Shown one piece after another: positions 2,850-38,195 of a stretch of 64,000 nucleotides of DNA. The stretch's first letter is position 1. Each line of letters starts with the position of its first letter. A program made the position numbers and the translations under genes. The stretch comes from Chrysomallon squamiferum (taxonomy: Eukaryota; Animalia; Mollusca): contig CM022670.1 of the NCBI GenBank assembly GCA_012295275.1, positions 26,908,001 through 26,972,000 on the forward strand, in the 5' to 3' direction. The notes under the pieces were generated by a model. The model had not been told where the DNA came from. It saw only the letters and a list, made by a program, of their open reading frames with translations, and searched no databases.

Positions 2850-4574
2850 TAATAATTCCTGTTCCGCCTTCCTGTGAATACCAATTTCATACCAGAAGAA
2901 CTTTTGAACATTCGAGAGCTCGCCGCTCAGAGCTTGTCAATTTTTTACGCAGACTAGATAAATTTGCATTATTGTGTATTATATTAAATCTAATACTTTT
3001 CTTTTCTGCGGAAACATCGATAGTAGTAAACACTAAATCGAGTGATAATCTAATTGGATAGGTAAGTTACCGAAATTATTCCGAAACTTTTCCTTTTCTT
3101 TTTTTTTTTTTTTTTTTTTTCTCGGTTGTTACTAGCCTATCCTGGTATTCAGATTATTGTCATGTTACTGCGATGTTATTGTTTGTCTGTTTTAATGTCT
3201 GGCTTGTGGATTTGAATTAGATTGTTAAACATTTTCTTTTTAAAATTCAAATCCATAAATGGTAGAACAATTTTCTATTTAAAAACAATTGGGAAATTTT
3301 GAGCTAAAAAGTGTAACAGTTCTGAAAATTTATTATTTTAAATTTACAAATATTCAAATTATAATACAAATTCAATTGGCAACTTTCATATAAATTATAT
3401 TTTAATTTATTTATTTATTTTTTTTTTTCTCAAATAATTTCTGATAATTTAGTTCTGTGAATTACTGACAGAAGTTAAACAATATTTTTCAGTCTAAGTT
3501 CACTTTGATTTGTCAAAACACTCAGCTTTTCCTTCATATCATCTAATAAATACCACTGTTCCCACAGTGATATTTATTAAATAATTCCTTGTTTCAAAAA
3601 TCATAATTACACAATTAAAACATTGAAGAAATATCACTGAATTTAAATCGATAATCAAAATGGTCAGCATGTAAAAATCTACATCCTTTATTGATCTTTC
3701 ATTTAAAAACAAAGACTAAATCATTTACAAGCACAGTCTGGATGCTAAATACCATTTTATTTTAATTGTATCTGATATTTTTATTTTTGCACGAGCAGAA
3801 GGATAACAGATTATGGCCAAAATTTCAGTAAAATCTCTGCTGACAAAGGCATAGTCCTAAAATGCAAGATTACAAGATAACATATAAATTGATAGTTCTT
3901 AAATACGTCTATGCCTTTTGAATGGTTTAGAAAGGTTTGGAAAATTGTTGAATATTTGTTGTTTTTACTTTTATTTGGTATTAATTTAGATAGATTATGA
4001 ACCAGCACTGGAAAATTCATTTAAACTGAAAAATAATTTTAAGAAAATTGTTCATAAATATTTTATAATTTCAGCAGTTTTAAGTAAATAACTTTTCAAA
4101 GTATCCTAATTAATGCATTTGTACTAAATACTCATTCATTTTGAATGGGTAAATATTGTTTGATTTTAATTAATTAATGTAGTTATTAAATAATGAGTAA
4201 ATCAATACCTTATACAAGTATATTATAAATTAAATTGTCTATATAAATTGAAGTGAATAAACTAAATAAATTTTTAAATTTTTATCTTCTTGAAACAGTT
4301 TTCCTGTTGACTTCATGCAATTTCCTGTCTTCCATCCTTTAAAGAAAAACCTCATGTAGTAAAAGTTCTCATCATAGACTGCATAGGTTGTTTTTTTTTT
4401 TCATTTTTTTTTTTAGTATCATGAAAAAGTGAAGAAGGTGGTAACCAATTAAATTTATTTTATCAGAATGAATGATGGATTATGTCATTTTTGTGTAAAA
4501 ATATAATTATTGATATAACCTGTTAATTGTTATTTTAAACATTTTTTCGTTCATTTTCTCCAGAAACGTTAACA

Positions 4575-7500
4575 ATGGCTGTCAATGTTTATTCAACAAA
4601 TGCAACACAGGACAACCTCAGTCGTCATGATATTTTATCATGGGTCAATGACAGCATGCATACACAGTATCAGAAAATTGAAGAATTGTGTACAGGTATG
4701 ACAAACAAATTTTCTTTTAAAATTACTGACACTTGAACCTTTTTTTTGCAAATAGTTTTGTATAGTACATCATTAAAGATTTTTAACAATATTTATGACT
4801 AACATACAACATGATTGTAATTTAATTATTAATTAATTTTTCTGCTGATATTTTATGGGTTAAATTGTGGAATGAAAAATTGTTTTATGGATGTTTTTAT
4901 TGCATAGGGAAATTTCCAAAATGAACATGAATGCCACACAAGATGAAGAACTTGATACTATAAATCATTTTAGTTTTCTTTAGACATAACATAGTGTTTG
5001 AACTTGTAACTTAAAACATTCTGCATGTCATATATAAATTATAACAACTGTTTTTGTCAATTTATATTTAACATAGGATTATTTTCAAATAAGTTGCAAC
5101 ATACATTTTTATCATTATTGTTAATATACATATATACATACATACATACATACATATCTATATCTATAGATATATATACGCGCACACACACACACACACA
5201 TACACACTGTGGTATCGTCTTGTATTGTGGGGCCGAGCAAAAGTGACCTACATTGCAGGTATCATCTCATCAGAGGGACAAAAAATGCAAGAATTTTTTT
5301 TGAACATACATTCTTTATTCACATCCATCACATCAGTACCCACAACAAACATAAAACATGGCCAGGCATTGCCTTAGCAAGCATTAGAGGTTTTCCCTAA
5401 AACACAGTAGCAAATACACTGAATTCATTGATGGACATAAAAAATACAAACTTATTGTGTACATCTTTTTTAAAACATAATAAGCATAATGTTTTAAAAT
5501 ATATTGTTTGAAACCTAATTAGAGGTCTGATTAGTACCAGCCATGCATCTTTTTCACCTCAAAAGTACTAGTAATATGTGGTGTTCATAAAACAAATATT
5601 TATGAAATAATGTTGAATGACTGAATTACCAAAATTATGTACCAAATGGTTTGAACATGCACAGTTTGTCAGGCAAGCATTTGGTTATTGCAGTTCACAG
5701 ACATTCTGGTTTGACAAAAACAAAACTTCTTGCATGCTCGGAGAAAACAAAAACCAATCCAAATCAGTATGACTCATCATGTTAGCAGTGAAATAATAAT
5801 TTTAAAAAAAAACGCTGTGTGCATTTAGCAGGTATCTACTGCTCTAAAGGACATATCTACTGAAACACAATTGGTCTCAGAAAAGTCTCTACATTCATCT
5901 TAGGGACACTAAAGATGGGTACCGCTGTGTGTGTGTATAGTTATATGAAAATCAAAATGCTTTTTATGATAAACAGATCCAATCGCAGATTTAACTGTGG
6001 TTAATTGCATATTCAGATATTATTTTGACAGGCACAGTATTTCAGTTCTTATAATCTGAGTGAAAGAAACAAACAAAAATGATAATAAAAATCCTCATTA
6101 ATTCTTAACGTGTGTATTTAAATAGCTTTCATTATGATATACCTAATTTTAAACTATTTGTGGATTTTGTTTGAGTGTGAAAGTTTATAATATTTAAAAA
6201 TTTAATTCATACTAAAATATCTTGGAAGCTTTTAACATTTTATATTGTAAATGATGGCTGTCATGTATCCATTTGAATTAGACTCCTCTCATTATGTAAT
6301 ATATTTTATAGGCACAAATAACATGGGAAGTATAAAATTTCAGCATCTTGACAACAAAATATTAACAGTTTTAATTTCTGTTTTCTTTGCATCCAGATAA
6401 TTTTAAATGGTGGCCATTTCCACCCACCCATATTTGCAATAACATTGTTCTTCCCAAAATATTCATTTTAAGTTTAAAATATTCATAACTTGCACTTTAA
6501 TGTGTTGATCATATGTAATTCTCTTTTTGAAAATTGATACACATTGTAATAAAGAACAAAGTGATAAAAATAATTGGTGACAACTATATTCAGAATGGCT
6601 TTTGACAGATGATACATTGGCTATACACATAAATTAAATGGCATATTAATTAACTTTCATTTTGAAATATCAAAATGGAGTTGGTTTTATTCATGTCCAG
6701 TGCTTTACCATAGTAGTTATTTGTTATGTGTGTTAATTAATAATTGTTTCTTTTGGTTTAGCAATTCTTACTTATTTTTGAAATAAATATTTGTCATAAT
6801 AACTTGTTAATAACTGATTTTAAATTCAGTAGACATTTACCTCATTTGAATTATTTTAAAATAAATTTTTGTAATTACATTATGTAGAAATTTAAAATAA
6901 ATAATTAATGATTGGTGTGTGTGGCCAGTTTTATTATTATTATTTTTTTTTTTTTAATTTGTTTTTGTATCAGAAAGATTTAGTCAGTTGTGATAAGTTC
7001 TTTCTTCTTTTTTTTATTTTTTATGGCTAAACAGATACAATAAATTTCATATTTTAAAAACTTTCAAATTAAATTGATGATTATTTTAAAAAAAGAAGAA
7101 AAAAAATGAAAGTACATTTCAGCAAGACAAGCTTAAAATAAAACAATAATACACCCAAAATTAATCTGATTAATTTTAATAACTGTACCTAAAGCATTAA
7201 ATTATAATTTATAAAAATTGTTTTTGAGCTGTTTGACAGAAAGTAATAAGTAACTAGTTTAATAAATTATCAGAAAATTACACGTCTGTCATTTCTAAGA
7301 TATCTGAACTGATTTTAATAGAACACATGTGAATAGGTACAGGTTTATTATGTTGTCTAAATTATGATATTCATAATATTTAAATTTTCCGTGTATAATC
7401 ACATTATTATTATTTTGTAAAACCATTCATTTATTAGAATACTGTCTCAGAAAATATGCAGAAAAAAGTTAATTGTATAATATTAAATTATTTTGGTTTA

Positions 7501-8248
7501 TTTTATACAAATAATTCATCATGAATATTTCCAGGAATGTTATTTTAATATTTACTTCAATTTTTGCAGGAGCTGCATACTGCCAGTTCATGGATATGTT
7601 GTTTCCAGGTAATATACACTACATTTACGTTTTCTCAGATATTCTAGTATTTGATTTGTGTACCTAAGGCATTTAAATAAGAAAATTTTGTAGGGCTCAT
7701 TTTAGATTATATGCTGGGGATGAAACCAATCAGATTTATCAAGAAATCTGGGTGTTATCATTAACAGATAGTGATGTAAAATAGTTTTATTACTTGCATC
7801 AACTAGAGGCAAATATCTCGATGCCAGGAAGCCCATGTTAAACCCATGGGTGATTGAAGCAGCTCACTGGTGTATTTGTTACTGTTACTAGTGTAAAGAT
7901 TATAAGATATCTTAATGACTTTTCAAGGTTCCGTGTGAGCCAGAACTGGTTTTAAAATGTTTGTGAGATGAAATAAGTTTAAAGGATAGTTTGTAATATC
8001 TCCTTGTAGACATTGCTTGTAATTTACAGTTTGCATGGTTTCATATTTCAGTGTGGTTTTGATGTTTTTTCTTCTTTTAAATAAAAAAGATAAACAGGTT
8101 GAGTGTAATTTTAACATTTATCCCAGTTTTCATTTAACTTAGTCTTCTTTTGTAGTGGTCAAATGTTAATAATGTTGAAAATAAATGGGTTTTTTTTTAC
8201 CTTGTAATACATTTTTATACTTATATTTACTGGTTCTAATTGTTGTTG

Positions 8249-8283
<35 letters not shown>

Positions 8284-11200
8284 ACTATTGTGCTCAGTAC
8301 TATTTTCTGAACAGTTTGTAGATTTATATGCTTGTTTATTTGACGTTTTCCATTCAATGAGGGTAATGAAAAACACATAAATGATTTTTTTATCATATGT
8401 AATATATTTCTCTGTGAATGTACAATTTGGAAACGGCTCTGTAAAACTAAAATATTAATTACCCATCTAGCTTTATATTTTAATTATAAATCAGCTAAGC
8501 TCACTCTATTGATCATAGAGGATTGTCTTTTATTTTTGTTGACACTGTGTTGTGGCAACACTCAGCAAGTTACTCATAATAAAATCTCTTTGATAAGTAA
8601 TTTGTTTGCTTTTAGACTTGTAATTAATTTATTAAGGACATGCATTAGCTCATGGATACATCTCTAATCATATTTGTCCTCAAAGGTCATTATTTGTGAA
8701 ATGGGGGACATGTATGTCCAAGCATCCTAAGTCTATATACATTTGACCTGAATTAATTAGTTTATCAAGCTTTTTTTTATTGATTCAGCAGCTTGGGAGA
8801 CTGGCATGCTATGCATATTAATTAGGTTGTGGTGACAACAAACATTCCTTGCTAAGCCTAGTACTAAAACAGACTATATTATATATTATTATAGCTACAA
8901 ACAAGTGTGATAAAGTTGATAAATGAATAATTATGCCTTTTCCTCACCTGTCAAATATATATTTTTTAATATAACATTTGTGAAAAGTAAACTGATGGTT
9001 ATCAGTAATTTGTTTTCATTTAAAAAAAGAGAGAAAAATATGATAACTTTTTTCTGTCCAGTATGTGTATTTTTTTTTTTGCTGACTGGGTAACCATTTC
9101 AGGTGTACTTCCCATGAAACGAGTGAAATTCAGCACGAAATTAGAACATGAATATATACAGAACTGGAAGCTGCTTCAAAGCAGCTTCAAGAAATGCAGT
9201 GTTGACAAGGTGAGATTGCAAAAGGCACTGAGCGCGGTGATGGTGTGCAGGGCAGTGGCACTTCTGGATGCAAACTGGAATGTTTATGTTTGCAGCTTAA
9301 TCAGCATGACTAATACCTTTGATCCCTGTTCTTACCTCATACCACATTTACATGTAGCTCAAACGATGTGAAATGGTGTAAGGAGCTGTCTGTAACTTAA
9401 AACTGTCTGTGTTGTTCTGTATTTCAATTTTAACTTGAGTAACAATTGTTCTTAATATGGTGACATCCAAGAATATTTAGTGGGCCAGATTTCAGAGCTA
9501 AACTTGAAAAATGATTTATATATGTGACAGGTTTTGACATTCTTTATCTCATGTCAGTCTCCATACAGTTAAAAGTATCAAGAATGTAGTGTCACCTAAT
9601 ATACACATCCATTCACACAAGATATCTTGCTACATTCTTCTCAATTGTTTTTCTGATTAACCTAGTTTGTAATTTTGTTTATATACATACAAAACAAGTA
9701 TTTGTTTTCAGTTTTAGTGATTTATAGTTATTAGAATAAAGGTAACATAATCTTTACATTAATAACGAACAAATTAAGTTTCTATAATATGAAATAAACA
9801 TTATATTATGTTGTGTTTCCTGACTAATTCACTCTTTGACCTACATGTACAGTGGCAGCACCATTATCTTACTTTTTTTAAAATTCATTTACTACAAACA
9901 TATTCTCTTCAAAGGTTTAACATTATTTCAGTTTATTATTTCAAACCAATCTGTATATTCACAGAAAATTGTTAACTTCTATTTTTTATTTTTTGGTTTT
10001 ACTTTTGGTTTATTAATATTGTTTTGTTTTGTTTTTTTGAAGGGAATACATTTGTTTATTAGAATGAAACACAAACCAATGAAAAACATTGTTGTGCATG
10101 ATATAGATTTTTCAATAGGAGGGTGGAGAGAATGCATGTAATAATTGTTTTTAAAGTAAATGTTGCATGGTATTAAATTCTAACATTTATAAAAGTGCCA
10201 AGTTGTTAAATACGTTAGTGAGATTTTGTGTGAAGATACAAACAATAACAATAAGTAAAATGTCAAAAGCATGTGTCATGATCCTTTATGTGCCAATTTC
10301 AACTGAAATTAAAATTGTAGGGAAAGTATTATCCCTGAAAATGTTTATAAGATTGTTAGGACAGCTAATTCTGTTTTGGAATTTTACTAATGAGGGCAAA
10401 TATATGTTCTTAAAAAGAAAATTTTAAATTAATAAAATAGTATTCATTCCATTCCTTTTTTTTTTTTTTGTTAAAGTATCTCACGTACCTGTGGACATTT
10501 ACTTAAATTATCATATGGTAAATATCTTTTTTTGGAATTTAAACCATGCAACTTGAATTTGGGAGAAATAAGCATTTTTCTCAGTATTTTGTCAGATGGT
10601 TACTAAAGCATTCTCAGATCTGAACATGTTTGAAATTGGTTTGTTGTTCATTTTCTTCCCCTCCAAGCAGTTCCAGTGCTTTGCAATCCCTGTTCAACGA
10701 ACTGAGATGACAACGCTGAGACTCAGCACTGCATGATGTTGGATTTCAAAAACTAACCAACCCAACAACAGGTGTGACATGCCCATTTTGTCGTGCTCAA
10801 CAGGTGTACATTATTTGTTTTAATTCTTGCAGGTTCAGTACAATTGAAAAAGTTAAAATTCAATACGAATTTAGAACACGAATACATAAACAATTTCAAG
10901 ACACTACAAGCAGCTTTTGCAAAACTGGGTGTCGACAAGGTGAGTTTCACTCATCTAGATTAAGTGCTGCACTTGTGGTCGATATATTTCATTATGTAAC
11001 ATGTGTTTTGTTGTTTCTCGCGTAGTTTTCTCAATTCGCTTTAATTATCTGTGCTTTCACCCTTTCAAATACCTTTCATCAGTGGTCAAGTGACAGAATA
11101 ATCAAAATTGCTTCAGCTTCAAAAATTCTTTTCAAGCACTGGAAAAAAAATTTGTTGAAAAGTTCAGTATTTAAATATAAAGATTTCATTTTGAAAAAGA

Positions 11201-12874
11201 AAGAAAACAAAAGATCTTGTTGTGAAAAGTGCTTGTAGCTGAAGTTATAAATACATGAATGTTTTCATTTCAGCCTTAACTATGTAATGTATGTACATAA
11301 TTAGATATATTACACAAAAATAATAACAGTAAAAATGTATTGAAACATTTTGATAATTGTTTACAGTTCATTTATTTTTACATTCATCAAAATTAAAAAC
11401 AGATTTTAGAATTTTGCTGGTAAGTTACACAACTGAATTATTGTATGGCTTCAGTCAAATGCAATATGTATACTTTTGAATTATTTGTAAATATTATAAT
11501 CATAATAATGGGGTTTTTATTAGAAGATGTAAACTAAAAACATCAATTTTAAAAAAAAGTAATAGCTTTTCTTTGTTGCTTTTGTTTAACATTATAACTT
11601 TAAAGCTTTTGGACTTTGGTGTTTTTGCTTTGATGATATAAAATAGAAGCCTTAGTTATTGCATTGGCAACAATAATGCATTTAAACGTATATATAAGTT
11701 ACCTCTGACAAGGAAAATATATGTTAGATAATATAAGAAACAAAGTTATGGTGTACATGCATTAAGAAATTTGATGGGGGGGTTTTTGGTGTTTTTTTCA
11801 CATAATCTGAAGTAGTAAACACACTGGTCAGGTTCTTGCAAGTGAATTAATTATGAACCAGCTTTAAATTAAATGGTTTTAGAGAGGGTTTTTAAAAAGA
11901 ACAAAAAAAACAATCCACCTGTTAATATGTTAAGATACTTAATTTTCATTTGTGGAGAAATTACATAACCCAATTAGCATTTAAGCTCTTGTTACATACC
12001 GAAGACCAAAAGAGCTAATGTTCAAAACATTGTCATCAGACAGTACTGGTAAGTTTTGTTTTACATGTCCTGGCACAAGATCTCTTCATAACTTTTTTGT
12101 TTTTAAATAAACATAAAATAAAAAAGCTTCCGTTACTAGCACCTTTTTACAGAAAGTTTTAATTTGTTAACTTCTTATGGTTTTAATGTCAACCTGTTCA
12201 TATTTCATTGAACTCATTTCTTAACAAAGAACTTAACAAAAGTAACTTTAAACAACTACAAATGGTATAATTAATGTCTCCATAATTTATTAATGACATT
12301 ACTGTTTCACTAACAAAACTAACTCACAACATTAATTTCTGTATTACAACAAATGTCTTTAAATTTCGGCATTATTTTAAGGTATTAAATTGTTCATGAA
12401 AACAGTTCAGATTACAGTGTGTTTACACAACAATTTCACCTGCACTTTTTTAATAGAGGTGACGATTTTTTAGATTATTATTAACATCAATGTTGTAAAT
12501 AAAAATGTAACTTATTGGCATCTTGACATTATTTAACCTTGCAAGTAGATACAAGAGGTAAAAAAATAAAAGTGATTTAATGTTCTAATCTAAAATTAAT
12601 AATAATATTTAACTCAGCTGTGCAGCACTGTATTTATTACTAAAATTAAGATTAATATTGGAATAAATCTGTAAAACATTGAGAAGTAAATAACTAATAA
12701 AAATATGTAAAATATAGATTTAATTGTTGATACAGTGAAATGTAATCATTACAGCCAGTTATAATGGAATGTGCTAAAATATTTTGTTTTACTTTGTATA
12801 TGCCTTCAAAATAAAATTTGATAAAATAATTTCTTTTTCTTAATTTTTTTAATTTTCAATTTATTTATTTAGTT

Positions 12875-12905
<31 letters not shown>

Positions 12906-14664
12906 GTTCTATTATTAGGTGGTACCAGTGGAAAAGCTTGTCAAAGGAAAATTTCAGGACAATTTCGAGTTTGTTCAGTGGTTTAAAAAGTTCTTTGATG
13001 CCAACTACCAAGGTCAGGAGTATGATGCATTGCAGATGAGAGATGGTATTCAAGTTGGAGCTCCTTCAAAATCTGTTCTGAACAAACCTCACCAGAGAAC
13101 AGCACCAGGCAACACAAGACCATCTCCAAAAGCAGGTATGTTTGTTTAGTTACATGATCCAAAAAGCCCTAAATTACTACCAATAACAAAAACATAAAAT
13201 AATACTGAGTAGACCAAAAATACCCTTGATGGAAATTGACAAATTGAAAGAACATGAAATTGAACCAGGTGCGTAAATCCTAATTAATGTTATTAAATTA
13301 TTTTCCAAAAACTCTATAGAGTTCTAAATTCATGAACTGAAAAATGCAAAATTAATATTACTCTAAATTGTAATTGTTGTGGCATAGATAGTAGCTGCAT
13401 CTTAGTTTTTAATAAATTTTTTAGCCCCGCCAAAAACCACCCAGAGAAATCCTCACCCAGTAGGCCCAGCATCAAGGGTTGCAAACCATACTGGAGCTGG
13501 AGATTCATTGAAAATCAGGGAACTGGAAAATGAGGTATATAGTCTAAATTTACAAATAACTTGTAGATGAGTGATTTGAATAAAAAAAAATGTATTATTC
13601 ATTTATTGTGATTGTTATTATTGTTTATTTATTTATTTATTTTATTTTTACTTTTATTTGGAATTGTTTGAGAAATTCTAATAGGAATTTTTGAAATCTA
13701 AACCATAACATCATTGTTTGAAAACTATCCAAATAAAAGAATAAAATTAAGTTTAAAAAAAATGCAAAACAGTTTCATCTGTGTGCTGTTTGTCTTTATC
13801 AAGTTGTGAACAGTTGTTTTTCTTGTGTGAAGATGCACATGGTTGTGTTTCATGGTACTTTAAATGAACACACACTATTCTGTTGTTCCAGCTGACCCAG
13901 CTAAATCAGGAGAAGGATGGTCTGGAAAAAGAGAGAGATTTCTACTTCAGCAAGCTTAGAGATATCGAGGTCTTGTGCCAGGACCACGAGGAAGACCCAA
14001 CAATAAAACAAATTATGGATATTCTTTATGCAACAGAGGTGAGCAAGCAATAAGAAGCCCTCTCATATTGAACAGTCCTTCAGCTTGCAATGGTTAGTTA
14101 GGAAAATCATGTTACAGCATGTCAGTATTCTTTTATTTCTCTCTCACTGTTTACTATCCAGGCTAGTGTCACCTGACTGATTTATGAAAGGTCTAGGTAT
14201 GTGTTTTCCAGTCTGTAGGAAATGTTTGTTAATTCGTTGCACCTGTATGTCTCTCACAAAACTTTTATGTAAAAAAAAATAGATCTTTGTATTATATAGT
14301 TTCACTCTTTCTAGTAGTTAAAAAGTGAGTATTTTCTTTCCACTTATTCTTAATCTTTTGTTTTAGTTATTCCTGTTCCTGTAGGCTTAGTGTATTAATA
14401 TAAGTATTATAGTTAATGTTTTAACTGAATATAAATTTGAGTTAGATTTATCATAATATAAGAACAGACTAGAATTCGTATCTTTTCAGCACAAAAATAA
14501 TACAGATATCTCCCACAATTTTAAGTTTCTGAATTTTAATTCCACAATTTTAAATTTAAAAAAATTTGATATTGTGTTTATATTTGTCTTTTTCTTTAAA
14601 ATTTCAGGAGGGTTTCACTGCACCTGATGATGCATTAATTGATGGAGAGCAAGACGAATATTAA
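4575..14664 (+). CDS. MAPRE: Microtubule end-binding protein EB1 / RP-EB family (MAPRE)
   Basis: Exons 4575-4695 ([26 protein letters not shown]), 7570-7608 ([12 protein letters not shown]), either 9103-9209 or 10833-10939, 12919-13135 ([26 protein letters not shown]), 13425-13534, 13892-14038 ([23 protein letters not shown] domain) and 14608-14664 (acidic tail ending QDEY*). A probable non-coding first exon ends at the donor at 3061. Confidence 0.97.
9103..9209 (+). CDS. MAPRE: EB1 alternative CH-domain exon A (107 nt)
   Basis: ttcag|GTGTACTT...GACAAG|gtgag. Encodes (G)[35 protein letters not shown], phase 1 to phase 0. Confidence 0.92.
10833..10939 (+). CDS. MAPRE: EB1 alternative CH-domain exon B (107 nt)
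   Basis: tgcag|GTTCAGTA...GACAAG|gtgagt. Encodes (G)[35 protein letters not shown], with the same length and phases as exon A. Confidence 0.92.
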
Positions 14665-19492: not shown

Positions 19493-22400
19493 CTATTTGT
19501 GTGTGACTTCTTTTCCTATGATTTCACATTGTACACCACGCGTAGCTTTATTCTGAATATATGGCGTTTGACTTCCTGCTGTGCCTGACAGATTTACTTG
19601 CCTTAGGTTGTTACACTCTCCAAAAACACCAAAAGGAAATTCATCGAAACAACACGAGAGACCTTCATTAAACTTGTAATATGGTAGTTCTTGGAAATTT
19701 GGCATTTTTTCGAGATGGTCAAAAACGGGTATATTACTGTTCTCTACATAATCAAAATTTGCCTTAACTGGTCTATTCCAAAACTGTTTTCCAAACATTT
19801 CATTGCATTTTCGACGAGAATTTTTGTTTTTGGACATTTGTTTAGTGACATAGAAAAATTCATCTAGTGACATGGTGTCGGTCTTGGGCTGTTTATATTT
19901 TTTTCCTGAAATGCTATATGTATTCTGACCCTCGAAACTAAGATCCGTAGAACTTTTGTAAAAGTGAGGATTAACATAAGACTGCTTTTTAAATGAGTCT
20001 ACGAGGTTCCGCAAAAGGTTTGAATGTTGAAAATATATATCTGAACAAATATCGATATCATCATTATCTAGCCTCAAACCCTCAGCTAAGTTATTTGCTT
20101 CCTCGTAATTGGGTTTAAATGACTGCTGAAATTCTGTATTTATACAAATTTCACTTTGGATGTCTTCCGTTTCCATATCCTGGACATGTGAAACTCCAAA
20201 ATTAGATTCTCCGTTTTCGGTTGATGATGTATATTTGTTATACAATGACACGGCCTTGTGCGCTCTTCTCTCGCTACCAGGTATATTATTAACATTTAAT
20301 TTGTTTTTATGAAAGTTCTCTTCAAGTGTGCGGCAGGGTAAAACATTAGAGCACCAGTCTGAAGTAGCCGGTAATTCTTCAATTTTGTGAAGCTCTTTAG
20401 ACTGCTTCTTTTCATATTGTTTTAATAAATTTTTCAGTTCAGTCGGTATGCCATCAAACATATCCAAGTTGTTATTTTCAGATGAATATTCAGCTGAATT
20501 AAAACGCTCGGTGGTTGTTTTGTTTATTTGATTTGGAATGTCATCACATATCTGCATTGGCGATTCTTGATTTTCCCGTATCTCGCTAATGCTAGGTGTA
20601 GGGCATTTCGGTAATTCATTAGTATTTGTTGATTTATTCTCCTTTGATAACGACGTGTCTTCATTTAAAGAAATGGTCAAACGTTCTTCCCGGGCTCTAG
20701 GCAGGTGTTTTTTGCATGGACTACATGTTTCTTCGACCTGCATCTGTTCGAAGGATTTTAGCAACTCGGCGACTGTTTTAGAAGCCGCTGGTACTTCATG
20801 TTGTTTGGGTGACTTAGAAGGTTGCAGTGTCTCAGTTGTACCAGAAACCGACACTGGTAGTTTACTGGATGCTTTGGGCAGATGCAATTTAGAGGGTTTT
20901 AAAAACAGAGCAGGTCTATTACCATGCTCCTTTGGTATATTATTGATACTGGAATACTTTCTGCGACTTTCAGATGTTGCAGAGTTAAGATTACCCGCCT
21001 GAGAATGTGGAACCTCTTTCGAAATTCCATTTGTTATATCCATTTTTGTTCCATTGCCTTGCTGTTCACATGAGGCTATAGGTTGAACACTAGCTTTCTT
21101 TTGTGATACGTATGTATTTGATCTGGCAGGAACATTTGCACTTTGGTAAATGGATACTTTTTCTTGTGTCCCATTAATATTACTCATTTGTTTAACCTTC
21201 AAGAGTTCACCCGATTCCGTAATTTGATTTCGTTCATTACTGTTTGTTAATATATTCATGTATGAATGATCTTTTTTATTGTGGGTTTCATTACTAATGT
21301 CCTTGTACGAATCATGCTTTATATTAATATTTTCACTACTTGATATAGGCGCAGAATTGTACTGTTCAGTGTGAGTAACATTCTTGAGAGATTCATGGTT
21401 TTTATTAGTAATTTCATGACTTGGTACACGGACGGAGTTTTTTTCACCAGTGTGAATATCACCACTGTACGAATCTTGCATTTTGTTACTAGTTTCATTA
21501 CTTGATACACGGACGGAGGTTTGTTTATCAGTGTGACTATGTCCATTGTACGGATCGTACGTTTTGTTACTAGTTTCATTACTTAATTCACGGACGGAGT
21601 TTCGTTTATCATTGTGACTATCATCCTTGTACAAATCGTACCGTTTATTACTAGTTTCATTACTTGATACACGGACGAAGTTTTGTTTATCAGTGTGACT
21701 ATCATCCTTGTACAAACCGTTCCATTTTATTATTAGTTTCATTACTTGATACACGGACGAAGGTCTGTTTATCACTTTGACTATCACCCTTGTACAAACC
21801 GTTCCTTTTATTACTAGTTTCATTACTTGATTTACGGACAGTGTTTTGTTTCCCAGTGTGACTATCATCCTTGTGCGGATCTTGTCTTTTATTAAAATTT
21901 TCATAACTTGATACACGGTCGGATTTTTTTTCATCGGCGTGAATATCACCACTGTACAAATCGTACCGTTTGTTACCAGTTTCATTACTTGATACACGGA
22001 CGAAGTTTTGTTTATCAGTGTTAGTATCACCCTTGTACAAACCGTTCCTTTTATTACTAGTTTCATTACTTGATGTACGGACAGTGTTTTGTTTCTCAAT
22101 GTAACTATCATCCTTGTGCGAATCTTGTCTTTTATTAACAATTTCACGACTTGATACACGGACGGAGTTTTTTTCACCAGTGTGAATATCACCACTGTAC
22201 GAATCTTGCCTTTTGTTACTGGTTCCATTACTTGATACCGGAGGTTTGTTTATCGGATTTTTTCATCGGCATGTTACCAGAATATCACCACGAAGTTTTG
22301 TTTATCAAACCGTTCCTTTTATTTTATTACTAGTTTCATTACTTGATATACGGACGAAGTTTTGTTTATCAGTGTTAGTATCATCCTTGTGCGAATCTTG

Positions 22401-25400
22401 TCTTTTATTAACAATTTCACGACTTGATACACGGACGGAGTTTTTTTCACCAGTGTGAATATCACCACTGTACGAATCTTGCCTTTTGTTACTAGTTTCA
22501 TTACTTGATACACGGACGGAGGTTTGTTTATCAGTGTGACTATCATCCTTGTACAAATCGTACGTTTTGTTACCAGTTTCATTACTTGATACACGGACGA
22601 AGTTTTGTTTATCAGTGTGACTGTCACCCTTGTACAAACCGTTCCTTTTATTACTAGTTTCATTACTTGATGTACGGACAGTGTTTTGTTTCTCAGTGTG
22701 ACTATCATCCTTGTGCGAATCTTGTCTTTTATTAACAATTTCATGACTTGATACACGGACGGAGTTTTTTTCACCAGTGTGAATATCACCACTGTACGAA
22801 TCTTGCCTTTTGTTACCAGTTTCATTACTTGATACACGGACGGAGTTTTTTTATCAGTGTGACTATCATCCTTGTACAAATCGTACGTTTTGTTACCAAT
22901 CGATACGGACGAAGTTTTGTTTACCAGTTTCATCCTTGTACAAACCGTTCCTTTTATTACAAGTTTCATTACTTGATACACGGACGGAGTTTTGTTTCTC
23001 AGTGTGACTATCATCCTTGTGCGAATCTTGTCTTTTATTACTTGATACACAGACACGGTTTTGTTTTTCACTTTGACTATCACCCTTATACAAACCGTTC
23101 CTTTTATTACTGGTTTCGTTACTTGATACATGGACAGAGTTTTGTTTTTCGGTATGACTAATCTCCTTGTAAGAATCATGTTTTTTATTAAGATTTTCAT
23201 TACGTGATACACGGACCAATTCTTCTTTTTCCCTGAGACTAATATCCTTGTCAGAGTCAAGTTTTTTATGAAGATTTCCATTATCCGTAACAGTATTCTG
23301 TTTTTCAGAATGACCAAAATCCTTGTACGAATCATGCTTTTTATTAACATTTTCCTTATTTAAATTATGGGAAAATTTTGTTTTTTGGGTCTCACTAATA
23401 TTCTCGTTCGGATCATGTTTTTTACTTACAGTTTCATTGCTTGAAGCCAAGGCAGAGTTTATTTTTTCAGAATGATTAATTTTACTCATTCTATCAACCT
23501 CCCTATAATGAGATACTTTGCAATGCTCTTTTAACGAGTCTGCAAGAGCTGATTCATCTGCTTCATATGCTATTATATTAAAGGTGTTAGTTTCAGCAAA
23601 TGAAACCTGTTTTGGGGTTCTACGTTTCGTTTTAACTTGCCCCATTTCGACGTCTGTATTATCAAGTGCTGCTGGCATTTGTTTTGTAAAAGAATCTTCA
23701 GTTTTGGACAGAAGTATTACGTTTGATATTTTGTTATCGTTATTTTCATCTTGGCATTGTTTAGACAATTTAGAAATCTCTTCTTCTAATGAAGAGTCTG
23801 TTTTGGTCAAAGGTTTTGATATTTCTGTTTTGGTATCTGAAACTGACTTTTGGGACTCCTTCATTTTAAAATGTTCTTCACTTTGTTTCGGCTTATCTAA
23901 TTTTGCTTCAGCGTTACATGCTTTTGACTGATCATCATCATAAATATCAGATCTGGTAACAGATTTCGATTCTGAAGTGGTTCCATCAACGCCTGGAACT
24001 TGATTTTGCGATTCGTTTATTTGGCTATTTTCTGATTTGATGGACGTATTTTGTGAATGGCTGTCTTTAGTGACAGACTGTTTTTCTGAAGAGTTACAGC
24101 TTTTCGCTGTAACTTTCGACTTATCCTTTGACAACTCATTCACTTTACACAATTCCTTGATTTGTTTCTTGTCGCACGAAGTTGGTAACTTAGCGGGTAT
24201 TGTATTCGCAGTCCACAAAACTTCTTTTCGTAACTTATCATCAGAATTTAAGGTATTTGACTTGTCTGTTCTCGAACTAGTAACATTTTTTGGTAAATCA
24301 CAATATTTGGTTGATTCTTTCTCCAAGTTCTGTTCAGGTGTTCTTAAAATAGACTTATTATTCATTACTGACATGTCAGCATTTCTTGAACCAGACTTGC
24401 ATGCAATAGCAAGAGATTCCGATATGAGGTGAGACGTCTGTTTTGGACTCTCATTAATTTCAGAAGCTGCTTTGACTTGATTTTGTTTAGATAATTTCAC
24501 TAACGGTGAGTCTTTATTAATATTGGATGACATATCACTTTTAAACGAATCGGCTGCTTTAGTTAAAGATTCAGATCTTGACGAGTTGAAGTTTTCTATT
24601 GGAGTTACAGAATCTTGTTTCTCTGGAGTATTAATTCGACAAGATTCTTTTACTTGCTTTCTCTCACATGACTGTAGTGTCTCAGCATTGTTGCATACTC
24701 GAATTTCTGATGCATCTGATTTGTTAATTAATTCGTGTGCTATTTCATTTAATGCATTCGTTCTTGGAATGGATTTCGAAGGTTTGCTGTTCTCCTTTAT
24801 TTCGTCAACTGGTGAATTTTCCAAACCTACTGGTACATTTATGTCGTGTACGACTGATCTATTACTTTCGACTGAATCATCTGATTTGGTATGAGACTGG
24901 AATTTTGTGTTGTCACTGTTTTCAGTTTTTCTACCACAAGAATCCTTTGACATCTCATATTTTTCACTTGTTTCTTTAATTCCATTTTCTGATGATTTTA
25001 TTGACTCATTTTGTTCTTTGCACTTTTCTGACAGATCTTTTGTTTCACAATTTGGTGTATTTAATTTGTCATTTCTAGCATCAGAAACTACTTTAATCGA
25101 TTCACTCTTTACAGTTATTTCTTTAACATCCTTTTGTTTTGAAAATGTTAACTTATCTATGGCTTTTCTAGTTCCTGTTGACAAATCTTTATCAGAATCA
25201 TCAGAAATAGCACGGGTTTCCAATACTGTATTCTTCTCACTAGGTTTATTAATGTCTTTATTTTCATTTTGCGCGGGCGATTCGGATGAAATAATTTCTT
25301 TGTGTATATTTGTCGTATCATTGTATTGTTTAGTGAATGAGCCAAGTCCAAAACTTTGGAATTTATCTGCTGTAAAATTTGGATTCGACTGTTCACCTGA

Positions 25401-27778
25401 TTGAACTTTTTCCGTATCTTGACATTCTTCAGGTGGTTGTAATAAATAAGTATGTTTATTATTCTTTTCTTTGGACGAATAACATGTTGGATTATCAGAA
25501 TGGATCGGCCTGTCAGTATTTTCTGCCTTATTAAATGCAATCTTTGATAATTCGTTGTGTTTACTGATCTTTTTAATTTCCTTCTGATCGCATGATCTCA
25601 CTGACTGCGCGACTTTACAACTACTGCTAAATATATTTGGTATGGTCTTTTTTAACATGTCCACTGTTTTTACAGTAGGTTCTGAAGCGATTGGTTTTAT
25701 CGAGTGTGTTGGTTTATTCTGTTCTGTGATGACTGATTCAGACTTTGATGATTTAAAAATTTTGCTTTATCACAAGACATCTTTTCCGAATTGATCCATT
25801 TATTTTCTTTGTTATATTTCCGGGTCTGATCTTTGTACACTATCGAGGAATCTTCATTAACTGCATTGGCGAGATTTTCCTCACTTCTAGTATTTAATCT
25901 GTCTTTCGAAGAATCATTACATAAACGTTCTTTAAATGTTCCTTTGCACTGATGCAATTCGGATGATTTTAATAAGCGAGAGGTTTTCTTGTCAATTTTT
26001 GGGGGCATGCATTCTTTGGTCTCAGATTCAAGTGGCATATTCTCTAACCTTTCCGCTCTTGTTTTTTTAATTCTCAGTAGCTCTCTAGAGATGCGTGCTT
26101 CTTCAATTAGTTGGTACTTCAATGACAGCATCTGTGGTACAGGCTCTACTGAAACATCCTTATTGGTGTGCTCGGCTATGATTAGCGATTCAGCACTTGG
26201 TGGGTTTAAAATATTTTCCCTACCATAATAATCGTTTTGCAGCTCACTACATTTATTTGTTTGATTAACTTGTTGGTTTTCAGAACGATCTTTTCTCAGT
26301 GATTCGTCTTCTGCGGTAAGAGATTCAGAACTAGATGTGTTTATAATATACGCTGTAGCCTTACAGCGTCGCTTGGATCCTTCGTCGATATTGTTTCCTT
26401 CCGTTACTTGATGATGAAGCGATGCAAAAACATCTCTGTCAGATCCGTAAGGCCAGGTGCTACATGTATCTATGGTATGCGAAAACATTGTTCTAGGTGT
26501 CTCGCTGTATAAACGGGTTTTACTTCTAAATAGTTCTGCGGTCGGCTCCAGAGATCGTTGTTCAGATGATCTGGACGAATCATTTTGTTTAGACTGGCAA
26601 CCACAATAATCTAAAGACCCTCTGTCTTCAGGATGTTCCTTTTGTTGCTGATAATCACACAGCTTCATAGAGGTGGACTGCTTATTAGAAAATGATTCCC
26701 ATGTTTTTGCAGTCAGAGAACCGCTCACATACGAATAACAGTGTTTGTTGTGACCGGTATCATAAACCTGCTTTGGCAAGTGTCGATTTTCAGGTTTTAC
26801 CTTTTGATTCTTTTTATTAGAATATCGTTTTAGCAATTCATCAGAACTGGACAATTTCTTTCTATAATCTTTTGAAGACTGTTCTAGAAATGAACTATCG
26901 GATATCGATGAATGTTCCCCTTTCAATTTTGTTAAACTATCCGCCATTGGACCGGAAACATGCTTTGGCAACACACTATTTTTATTGGTTCCTTTAATTT
27001 GCCTTTCATCAGATAAATGCATGTTCGGCCGAGACGGTACGAGATCCTTATTTTTGTAAATATCTTCCGAATCACTTGATATGTGAGACTCGAAAGTGGA
27101 ATCGAAACTTTCTAAAGAAGTGTCTGAAAAAGGCGATGTAAGCTCCGATAATTCACTCATTTGATATTCATCATAATATCCCAACGACTCATTCGGATTA
27201 TCAGCCACATCAGATGTATCGTGCTCTGTAAGCTCTACGATATTGTCAGTTATATCGGTGTCTAGCAATGCTGCAAAATCATCTCTTGACATATAATTAC
27301 CTTCTCCTTGACCTACGTCATGCTGGTGTGTGGACTGTTCCTCTATTGCAGACATGGATAAATGCCAAACCTCTTGAACGTTCTCTTCGGGTATAGTTCT
27401 TTCTGCTGTATCATGTAGGGTGGCATCTTGGGGATTATAAATATTGGCAGCTAATTCAGATCGAGGTAATTCTTTTGACGGATGCCGCTCGTGAGATGTT
27501 CTGCTTGTGACGGCGGTGTCTGAATTGCTAACGACGTTACTGTTTATCCTACTTTTACATATATCTGTTAATGATATTGGCTTGGTTAGTCGTCTGTATC
27601 TAGAAATTCGCTCAGGAGAACCAACTGCACCACGACTAATGTTACCTGACCTTTCGGCTGCCCTGTCAGGACTGTTTGAAGATCCTGCACGACGATGCAC
27701 CTCTTTACTGGGAGACGTCCTTTTTGAAGAAGTTTTTCGTGCTATAGTTGAATTAGGAACATTCGAGTCATATGACAT
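19493..27778 (-). CDS. Giant intronless Ser/Lys/Asn/Glu-rich low-complexity protein (about 2,700 aa if frames are joined), uncharacterised, with frame breaks
   Basis: Abutting minus-strand ORFs 25697-27823, 22893-25664, pieces in the repeat array and 19493-21720 share composition and have higher GC than the flanks. First ATG is at 27778 (MSYDSNVP). Frame breaks lie near 25750, 22900, 22850, 22230-22325 and 21720. No domain recognised. Confidence 0.7.
21300..23440 (-). repeat. Coding tandem array of 78-nt (26-aa) units, consensus like DSHTDKQNFVRVSSNETSNKRYDLYK
   Basis: The plus-strand core agtttcattacttgatacacggacg recurs at about 78-nt spacing. Variant units (GDIHTGEKNS.., RQDSHKDD.., RNGLYKGD.., TYDLYKDD..) recur in order. 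The array degenerates at both ends. Confidence 0.93.
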
Positions 27779-29234
27779 AATACTTGACACAACGTAGTTT
27801 GCTTGCCGAGAAACGATGTGCACTTCAATGGATACGTACTAAAGTCCCGCCTTCGAGTGTATGGCGATAACTTTCTATATCCTTCTTGATTAGTAAGCAT
27901 TAATTCGCCTGACAGAAGTACCTCAAGTTAGTCTTTAATATCAGTACTGAAGAACTGTTTTGGATTGTTTATTAGTGTTAATTTCAAGGAAGACATCTTA
28001 AGGCATTTTAATCTTCATCTCGGTTATTAAAAAATGTCCAGCAGTGTTTCACAGAAATATTATCGGAACTAAAAACAGTACTATTGGTTTCTTCTGTTGT
28101 TTCTTTTAGAAATTATGCATTAATAATGAAATATGTTTTGGTTTTAATTATACTGTGCTTCTTTTTTTTTTTTTCAAATAATTTTCTTTTAAAAATCTTA
28201 GAATGGTTACTATAATATAAGTTAGATTTGTAAGTTCAAACCATTTAAATGTTTTTATTCTAGATTATAGACATGTCTTCTTATGCTTGTTATGCTTCCT
28301 TCTGCTTCTTGTTTTAAACAAATGTTATTAAAACTTAATAGGGTTTGATATTTCCGTATTCTTGATGTGGAATTATCTTTGATATCTCTTTATATATTTG
28401 TTTTTCTTAATCACTATGGTACATATATATTACAACTGTTATTTATCATTGTGTATTTATTGTGCATTTTCTTGACTATTTTAAGCATCATGTTTTGTTT
28501 TAATTAATTCCTATGGTTTATCTTATCGCAGTTCATATTTTGCGTAACAGGAATTTCTTCTTGTCATCTAGGCCAATTTCATATGAAGGTCCTCTTGTTG
28601 TAACCTTGAAAAGTGTTTAGTTTGTATCAGTATATAATTATTATTTATAATATAAAGCAAATTTGTACGTCATAAATTTACTGCATTTATTTTTTTATAT
28701 TATTATTTTTTTAATAATGCAGTTATCAATGATAATGATTCCATAATTGATAAAATTTTAGACTACGCTATAATAGTATAATAAGATATGATATTAGGAT
28801 ATATAAAACAAAGCCTTTTTCTAACTTCTATTTTTTTTTTTTTTTTTAGAACAATGATAACTAAATATTAACATTTTCAATAACTAAGTAATATCTATGA
28901 TAGTAAACTACAATATATTTTACAATAGCAGAATGGCTAGGCGAGATTTTCGGAGATCTCTTTAATTTATTTGTAACACCGGGTAACGACAATAGGCCTA
29001 CACAACTGCAGTATTCTAAGAAACATAGAATGAATATAGATTAAATTTCAGTATCATTATCGGGTGTTTTTTGGTTGGTTTTTTTTATTGTTTTTTTTTA
29101 AATTTAACAAATATTTATTATATAATAATAAATTTAAAAAAATACAAAATAAAATTAAAGTAAAAACTATGATTAAAGAAATATATATTTACTCACCTAA
29201 ATTGAAGTGACGTAGATTAATAAGATTTTTGTGC

Positions 29235-37736: not shown

Positions 37737-38195
37737 TCTTATGTAACAAAATTTTCTCCATTACACTAAATTGGATATATTACAAGTAGTGTAAAATGTG
37801 GGTAATGTTATTATTTTTTGAAAGGGTAAGCCTTCATGACCTAGTTTGCCCAATCTTTTTTAATCTGTGAATCACAACAAGGAAGTTGTTAAGATAAGTA
37901 CTAGATATTGCTCTCATTTGTTGATTGCCTTTCTTCTAGTTCAGCTATAGTTATTTACAAACGGAAAAACACCATCATGATGCAATTGCTAGCATAAAAT
38001 GCAAACTGCTAGCAAAAAACATTCATTTGATTTAACTGAAAAATGTGTTGTCTGATTACACTATTTCTAACAGAGTTCTGTAAATCTGAAAAACTGAAGA
38101 CAGGAGTATTTGTTTATCTACACGTAATTTGAAAAGTTTCCACAGAAATAATCTGAAAATTATAAAATATAGCTGTTTTTACATCCTGACAAAAC

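What the first reader, a model, noticed from the sequence alone, without database searches (positions are those of the whole stretch)
9103..10939. Mutually exclusive duplicated exons in the EB1 microtubule-binding CH domain
Seen: two intact paralogous exons, both exactly 107 nt, in the same phases and with good splice sites. They encode [35 protein letters not shown] and [35 protein letters not shown]. Codons are strongly diverged while the protein motif is kept, which suggests an old duplication under selection. Since 107 is not a multiple of 3, including both or neither shifts the frame. Known: this segment holds the basic KxKF..KLEHEY surface that EB proteins use on the microtubule lattice. 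Exon A has 8 K/R versus 6 in B, and an unusual Trp where EB1 normally has Phe (NFK). Inference: one gene makes two EBs with different plus-end affinity, paralleling the vertebrate EB1/2/3 paralogues. I am not aware of this having been described.
Basis: partly seen in the sequence, partly recalled or inferred. Interest (0 to 1): 0.78.

Follow-up and report, generated by a model that had tools for sequence, protein, structure and literature searches.

The report
Swappable microtubule-grip exon in mollusc EB1
The EB1 gene of what is likely a snail carries two intact versions of one exon and splices in either one, annotated snail and clam proteins and a tubeworm gene model show the same pair, and the two proteins likely grip growing microtubule tips with different strength.

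Summary
Exons A (9103-9209) and B (10833-10939) are both 107 nt. Either one gives a 265-aa EB1; both or neither give an early stop. RNA contigs from one study join the upstream exon to A and to B in 4 of 4 runs, join A and B separately to the next exon, and show no A-to-B joint. Isoform pairs differing only in residues 54-89 occur in 15 of 20 mollusc clusters listed, and an annelid model holds both copies in tandem. The conserved difference is not the Trp. It is Lys83, absent from all 18 B copies and present in 54 of 55 single-copy arthropod and vertebrate EBs. Known contact residues are invariant. Different microtubule affinity and Rbfox-type control (six GCATG between the exons) are untested inferences. 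One contig of a DNA-like run shows B with a broken donor. Fly Eb1 is already listed as an exon-swap gene; the insect and crustacean models seen here duplicate the next exon instead. I found no paper on this event, and the scan had not noted it before.

The parts
4564..4695 (+). EB1 first coding exon (ATG at 4575), residues 1-41
   Evidence: loose ends before 7567 in X1, X3, X4 match its 3' end
7570..7608 (+). 39-nt shared exon E3 upstream of the pair
   Evidence: joined to A and to B in RNA contigs
9103..9209 (+). alternative exon A (residues 55-89; Lys83, Leu77, Trp75), the ancestral-like copy at 77 and 83
9210..9290 (+). GC-rich flank after the A donor (51% GC, the highest of 255 intronic 80-nt windows); candidate regulatory or pairing element, unproven
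9304..10735 (+). six GCATG (Rbfox-type motif) at 9304, 10096, 10134, 10165, 10269, 10731; four ACTAAY at 9309, 9823, 10386, 10752 in or just beyond this span
   Evidence: GCATG ranks 1 of 596 five-mers, 6 observed vs 1.3 expected, 3 of 3000 shuffles
10650..10810 (+). GC-rich segment upstream of the B acceptor; best long-range partner of the A-donor flank, not beyond shuffles
10833..10939 (+). alternative exon B (residues 55-89; Ala83, Thr77, Phe75), the derived copy at 77 and 83
12919..13135 (+). shared exon E5, end of the CH domain and start of the linker
   Evidence: its first bases follow A and B in RNA contigs
13425..13534 (+). exon E6, linker
   Evidence: joints in 4 of 4 RNA runs
13892..14038 (+). 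exon E7, EBH coiled coil
   Evidence: joints in 4 of 4 RNA runs
14608..14664 (+). last coding exon, acidic tail and stop

Best explanation
This EB1 gene splices either exon A or exon B into otherwise identical 265-residue proteins, and the two likely differ in how strongly they hold the microtubule, because B has lost a conserved lysine (83) on the predicted helix that also carries a likely tubulin contact (Lys76). Shown: both exons are intact, each is spliced on both sides, and both or neither give an early stop; the pair recurs across gastropods, bivalves and an annelid. Inferred: the stops lie 566 and 406 nt upstream of the last junction, so nonsense-mediated decay would clear mis-spliced messages. 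Predicted: an Rbfox-type protein bound to the GCATG cluster between the exons favours A and represses B, so A would be the neuron and muscle form and B the default. Predicted: B is the weaker or more tip-restricted binder. One duplication before molluscs and annelids split is more likely than repeated ones. My odds by step: real mutually exclusive use 0.93; single ancient origin 0.65; measurable difference in microtubule binding 0.55; Rbfox-type tissue switch 0.45.
For: Splicing. Conservation: in 15 of 20 mollusc clusters listed, equal-length isoforms differ only within residues 54-89. Gigantopelta copies match the window at 32/35 (A) and 34/35 (B). Annelid Lamellibrachia model P0334, unnamed protein P0146 and genomic locus L029 (two 107-nt exons with AG/GT ends) hold both copies in tandem, with the Lys83 copy first as in the window. 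One A/B labelling fits 9 subclades (34 of 36 cells positive; 0 of 1000 clade-aware shuffles). Lys83 is in 14 of 18 A, 0 of 18 B, 39 of 40 arthropod and 15 of 15 vertebrate EBs; residue 77 is I/L/V in 17 of 18 A, 4 of 18 B and 55 of 55 single-copy EBs. A model of the Gigantopelta B isoform has a helix at 68-85 with pLDDT 85-94 over residues 21-130, so 76, 80 and 83 are i, i+4, i+7 (inference: one face). Mal3 K63 and K76 contact alpha-tubulin and charge reversal weakens binding (PMC3368265 passages); I map them to EB K76 and K89 by an inferred +13 offset. Conservative CH changes are enough to shift EB tip position (PMC6398475 passages). GCATG enrichment is strand-specific and confined to this intron; downstream binding usually activates and upstream binding represses (PMC11874969 passages).
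Against: In run X5 (other study, kind not on record, looks like DNA) the only contig shown over exon B carries three amino-acid changes (A83T, G86A, K89N) and loses the donor GT, while its exon A contig has no change. The contacts validated by mutation (inferred EB H69, K76, K89) and K59/K62 are the same in both copies. In Pomacea, Littorina, Mercenaria and Mya neither copy has Lys83, and net charge is equal in 3 of 18 pairs. The cross-clade signal leans on two columns: without 83, 11 of 400 shuffles reach it; without 83 and 77, 56 of 400. The 35-column tree makes neither A nor B one clade (6 and 4 changes; 0% of 200 bootstrap trees with one). Mytilus (6 members) and Ostrea (3) clusters showed only the Lys83 type. 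GCATG is not enriched in L029 (2 vs 0.92 expected, 118 of 500) and is absent in L079. All RNA comes from one study, as contigs.
Confidence: 0.58

Rival explanations
1. The exons are used mutually exclusively, but the swap mainly changes something other than lattice affinity, such as self-inhibition by EB1's acidic tail, a partner or modification site on the 77-80-83 face and the 55-58 loop, or protein stability.
For: Validated contact residues are invariant; the variable columns are 55-58, 64, 73, 77, 80, 81, 83, 85, 86. The EB2 specificity residues lie outside this exon. Caenogastropods keep two different copies with no Lys83 in either.
Against: The one consistent physicochemical trend is charge (A>B in 15 of 18 pairs, never lower), on a helix that carries a likely contact lysine.
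Confidence: 0.27
2. Exon B is a dispensable or decaying copy kept by weak selection, and the two products are functionally equivalent.
For: X5 contig with three residue changes and a lost donor in B. Only one type seen in the Mytilus and Ostrea clusters.
Against: B is 34/35 identical to Gigantopelta B, more than A is to A. B is spliced with an intact sequence in the RNA runs. B copies are as conserved across species as A copies (mean identity 25.0 vs 24.1 of 35).
Confidence: 0.08
3. On origin only: the exon was duplicated independently in several lineages, and the second copy lost Lys83 each time.
For: The tree does not resolve A and B clades and the signal rests on two columns. Loci L038, L039, L041, L045, L079 and proteins P0147, P0148 hold tandem copies of the same exon with a different pattern. 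Insect and crustacean models duplicate the next exon. Convergence is common in this class (PMC9741552 abstract and passages).
Against: One labelling fits all 9 subclades. Order is Lys83 copy first in 4 of 4 tandem cases where only one copy has a basic residue 83.
Confidence: 0.33
4. The two exons come from separate paralogues or haplotypes mis-joined in the assembly.
For: No whole genome was held to check for other EB loci. X5 shows divergent haplotype tracts in the intron.
Against: The same E3 and E5 sequence is joined to both exons. An X2 contig runs 9183-10763 from exon A through the intron and an X1 contig runs 10478-10859 into exon B. Isoform pairs in 15 genera are identical outside the block.
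Confidence: 0.02

Closest known systems
Drosophila Eb1 (FBgn0027066) tandem duplicated / mutually exclusive exons
   Same: Same gene family and same kind of event in the CH domain. The gene is listed in PMC7954323 S1 Table, fly sheet and PMC9741552 Table S4; the ID is Eb1 (PMC7885120 passage).
   Different: The lists give gene names only. In my protein sets 52 of 449 proteins repeat the next exon (from residue 90; the named ones I inspected are insects, Daphnia and copepods), and none of those repeats residues 55-89. That the listed fly event is that next exon is my inference from D. sechellia and D. persimilis models.
Tandem duplicated exon substitutions / homologous mutually exclusive exons as a class
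   Same: Homologous same-length exons, conserved core residues, old age. Class median length is 36 aa and mean identity 67% (PMC7954323 passage); here 35 aa and 54%.
   Different: This event was not found in print. MAPRE has no hit in the one supplement file of PMC9741552, which lists only part of the human set.
Vertebrate EB1/EB2/EB3 (MAPRE1-3) paralogues
   Same: EB variants with small CH-domain differences; in vertebrates these change nucleotide-state preference and tip position (PMC6398475 passages).
   Different: Separate genes with different linkers and tails. Their mapped determinants lie outside residues 55-89, and all 15 vertebrate sequences checked keep Lys83.
RefSeq/GenBank isoforms of mollusc EB1 (for example XP_041358473.1 and XP_041358474.1)
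   Same: The two products are already in automatic annotations as isoforms X1 and X2.
   Different: They carry no comment that I saw, and are named 'member 1-like' or 'member 3-like' by isoform.

Membership tests
EB1/MAPRE family | N-terminal CH domain and C-terminal EB1 (EBH) motif | tested here: met
   Pfam CH and EB1 pass cut-offs for both Gigantopelta isoforms; gap-free alignment to EB1/EB3 over residues 1-130; window translation matches these
EB1/MAPRE family | Autonomous tracking of growing microtubule ends | not testable with these tools
   needs TIRF or cell imaging
Homologous mutually exclusive exons | Adjacent exons of the same length and phase with homologous sequence | tested here: met
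Homologous mutually exclusive exons | Each exon is spliced to the same flanking exons | tested here: met
Homologous mutually exclusive exons | Double inclusion and double skipping are absent | tested here: inconclusive
   no A>B joint in 4 RNA runs, but contigs drop rare forms; joints beside the T-run before 12919 were probably dropped, so E3>E5 skipping was not properly tested
Homologous mutually exclusive exons | Conserved in relatives | tested here: met
   15 of 20 mollusc clusters; annelid model; locus L029
Homologous mutually exclusive exons | Tissue- or stage-specific use (common in the class, not required) | not testable with these tools
   contig depth cannot rank isoforms and tissues are not given
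Exclusion by steric hindrance | Very short distance from first donor to second branch point | tested here: not met
   intron is 1623 nt
Exclusion by U2/U12 incompatibility | One splice site of minor-spliceosome type | tested here: not met
   7 of 7 donors are U2-type
Exclusion by competing RNA pairing (docking site / selector) | Conserved complementary intronic elements with covariation | tested here: inconclusive
   best duplex joins the A-donor flank to about 170 nt upstream of B in both window and L029, but 14 of 100 and 15 of 100 shuffles do as well; no close relative's intron for covariation
Exclusion backed by nonsense-mediated decay | Both or neither gives a stop more than about 50 nt upstream of the last junction | tested here: met
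   566 and 406 nt upstream; decay itself not tested

The most novel reading that the evidence does not exclude
Since before molluscs and annelids split, these animals have made two EB1 microtubule-binding heads from one gene by an Rbfox-controlled switch: a Lys83 form for neurons and muscle and a Lys83-less form elsewhere. Arthropods reached a similar end by duplicating the next exon, a third lineage by duplicating this exon again, and vertebrates by duplicating the gene. The 77-80-83 helix face would then be an unrecognised dial for EB tip-versus-lattice binding, and mixed dimers would add a third state.
Probability: 0.25. Interest if true: 0.75.

Novelty: new member of a known kind. Interest (0 to 1): 0.5.

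Why it matters
EB proteins are the hub of microtubule tip tracking, and small changes in the CH domain move where an EB sits on the tip. This is a natural, long-conserved swap of 35 residues in an otherwise identical protein, and it points to residues 83 and 77, which the papers I read do not single out. It can be tested with two constructs and one point mutant, and in Aplysia, where both isoforms are annotated. Anyone using a mollusc EB1 as a probe should also know which isoform they have.

Tried and rejected
No own genome was held, so other EB loci in this animal were not checked. A homologue search with exon A plus 5 upstream codons gave only 2 hits among 4 candidates. A first fold from a 9-row alignment was poor (pLDDT 52.8) and was not used; no fold search was run. 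Repeat search of 7570-13135 gave mostly AT-rich matches. Long-range RNA pairing: duplexes of -24 to -30 kcal/mol link 9213-9270 with 10662-10799 and 10952-10977, and 10955-10980 with 12611-12637. The A-flank/B-flank duplex was matched by 5 of 25 and 14 of 100 shuffles, and the 9217 allele seen in all five runs weakens one helix from -25.1 to -20.9. Kept as a lead only. Local alignments of the four intron flanks to L029 were not above shuffles (252, 100, 216, 77 of 300), so shared short motifs are not claimed. YGCY motifs were not enriched. Trp75 as the key difference was rejected: W in 17 of 152 motif matches among representative hits and 1 of 204 among the two large homologue lists. Contig depths were not used to rank isoforms. 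The tree was unresolved and I ran no AU test. Literature: searches listed no paper on this event (24 gave one unrelated review; two gave none); one search found no paper on EB residue 83; the Drosophila exome paper doi 10.1038/ncomms3460 is not held and may describe the fly exon; PMC8284659 has no passage on Eb1 isoforms; PMC5727398 passages named no contact residues. Supplementary figures listing residues within 5 A of tubulin (PMC6398475 Fig S5, PMC3368265 Fig S3) are images that I could not see, and they bear on whether 77, 80 and 83 face the lattice.

Full report
Observation. The window (29.6% GC) holds a complete EB1/MAPRE gene on the + strand. Exons A (9103-9209) and B (10833-10939) are 107 nt each, with canonical U2-type ends and the same phase; they share 66 of 107 bases and 19 of 35 residues. 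Joining E2-E3-(A or B)-E5-E6-E7-E8 gives a 265-residue protein either way; both exons together stop at codon 94 and neither stops at codon 76. Numbering equals that of human EB1/EB3 over residues 1-130, so the exons encode residues 55-89. The closest named relative is the gastropod Gigantopelta aegis (88% over E5), so the animal is likely a gastropod. No genome was held.

Expression. Five public runs hold the stretch: four RNA runs of one study and one run of unrecorded kind from another. All are contigs. E3 is joined to A and to B in X1, X3 and X4 as joints and in X2 as loose ends. No A-to-B joint is listed. That absence is weak because contigs drop rare forms, and skipping of both exons was not properly tested. 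Intronic contigs link A to the intron (9183-10763, X2) and the intron to B (10478-10859, X1), which argues against a mis-join. Against my reading: in X5 the only contig shown over B has three residue changes and has lost the donor GT, whereas A is unchanged. It may be a null allele whose intact partner was collapsed or filtered, a second copy, or an artefact; I could not resolve it.

Conservation. I listed members of 20 mollusc protein clusters. In 15, equal-length isoforms differ only inside residues 54-89, by 6-15 residues: Gigantopelta, Patella, Pomacea, Littorina, Biomphalaria, Physella, Aplysia, Bradybaena, Mercenaria, Mya, Dreissena, Sinanodonta, Magallana, Argopecten, Mizuhopecten (the Bradybaena proteins carry consecutive but different locus tags). 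The five misses were Lottia and Plakobranchus (one member each), the Tegillarca cluster, Mytilus and Ostrea. These are database models, not experiments. The annelid Lamellibrachia model P0334 reads through both copies in tandem, as does unnamed P0146. Of 80 metagenome loci, most too short or spliced to show a pair, 6 hold two copies: L029 has two 107-nt exons 567 nt apart, and L038, L039, L041, L045 and L079 share another pattern with an intron of about 110 nt. No cephalopod, chiton or brachiopod was among the hits listed.

What differs between the copies. Across 18 pairs one A/B labelling scores far above column-swap controls (0 of 300), and still does when relatives are swapped as blocks (34 of 36 subclade cells positive, 0 of 1000). 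The signal is mostly residues 83 and 77: dropping 83 leaves 11 of 400, dropping both 56 of 400. Lys83 is in 14 of 18 A copies and 0 of 18 B copies, against 54 of 55 single-copy arthropod and vertebrate EBs; residue 77 is I/L/V in 17 of 18 A, 4 of 18 B and 55 of 55 single-copy EBs. So A is ancestral-like there and B is derived. Net charge is higher in A in 15 of 18 pairs and never lower. Where order is known and only one copy has a basic residue 83 (window, Lamellibrachia, P0146, L029), the Lys83 copy is first; only L029 played no part in the labelling. The other 3 of 7 tandem cases scored keep a basic 83 in both copies, and in L038 and L079 the second copy is the more A-like. A tree of 46 rows by 35 columns is unresolved. 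One origin before the mollusc-annelid split (Cambrian, from general knowledge) is therefore likely but not shown. Trp75 is limited to this window and Gigantopelta among the pairs and also occurs in Hydra.

Likely function. A model of the Gigantopelta B isoform places residues 68-85 in one confident helix. In Mal3, Y56, K63, K76 and Q89 are validated contacts, K63 and K76 with alpha-tubulin (PMC3368265, passages). A +13 offset, inferred from matching residues and not aligned here, makes them EB H69, K76, K89 and Q102. The three inside the exon are the same in A and B. Residues 80 and 83 are one and two turns from K76, so the simplest reading is that both isoforms bind the normal site and B has less positive charge beside one alpha-tubulin contact, hence weaker or more tip-restricted binding. 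Small conservative changes do retune vertebrate EBs, but the mapped ones lie outside this exon (PMC6398475, passages). I could not measure distances to tubulin. This step is inference.

Likely control. Steric exclusion (1623-nt intron) and U12 incompatibility are ruled out; both wrong products would be decay substrates by the usual junction rule (rule from general knowledge). GCATG occurs 6 times in the A-B intron against 1.3 expected. It ranks first of 596 five-mers (3 of 3000 shuffles), its reverse complement is not enriched, and only 2 of 312 same-size windows in the 64 kb reach six, both over this intron. I tested 4 motifs in 8 introns; ACTAAY was also raised here (4 vs 1.06, 2 of 300). 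Rbfox binds GCAUG and usually activates an exon from downstream and represses from upstream (PMC11874969, passages), so this position predicts A on and B off where Rbfox is active, typically neurons and muscle (recalled). The same paper warns that GCAUG is common and often unbound, and the motif is not enriched in L029. The two most GC-rich ends of any intron here flank this intron and can pair, at the same distance from B's acceptor as in L029, but not beyond shuffles.

What is known. Homologous mutually exclusive exons are a well-described class (PMC7954323 passages and S1 Table hit; PMC9741552 passages and part 1 of its supplement). Fly Eb1 is on both lists by name. In my sets, insect and crustacean models repeat the next exon and not this one. 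Searches and 83 of an open-access library found no description of the mollusc/annelid event; most subscription papers are not covered. The scan's own index had no look-alike sequence and no EB1 note.

Verdict. A real, expressed and deeply conserved alternative-exon pair in the microtubule-binding domain of EB1, apparently undescribed but of a known kind and already latent in RefSeq isoforms. The function is plausible and cheap to test. Interest 0.5.

Noticed in passing
window 14039-14053: Reading on past the E7 donor gives five residues and a stop, like Gigantopelta isoform X3; an X3 RNA contig covers 14010-14342. Short isoforms without the acidic EEY/DEY tail also appear in Physella, Mizuhopecten and Onthophagus. 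Possibly a conserved tail-less EB1, or simple intron retention.
   Followed up: partly
window 10918-10954, run X5: A contig with exon B carrying three residue changes and a lost donor, inside a region with other divergent haplotype tracts.
   Followed up: partly
L038:5777-6102 and L079:325-647: An unidentified animal lineage with the same exon duplicated about 110 nt apart; the first copy seems to have two possible acceptors (113 or 104 nt) and both copies keep a basic residue 83. Possibly an independent duplication.
   Followed up: partly
proteins P0003-P0021, P0295-P0340 (52 in all): Insect, Daphnia and copepod EB1 models carry two copies (three in Culicoides) of the exon after this one.
   Followed up: partly
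window 19493-27838, minus strand: Overlapping long open frames (918, 346, 957, 713 codons) with an 81-nt tandem array at 21300-23358; the three longest have no Pfam match. Probably one large repeat protein broken by frameshifts in the array.
   Followed up: partly
window 38190-40250, plus strand: A 686-codon open frame with leucine-rich repeats and a TIR domain, a Toll-like receptor.
   Followed up: no
window 9217 and 11016: All runs covering these sites read C where the window has T, so the window carries a minority allele or an error there.
   Followed up: no
window 8078, 8955, 9037, 12685: Long loose ends recur in several runs at these intronic places, suggesting insertion or deletion differences between the window and those animals.
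   Followed up: no
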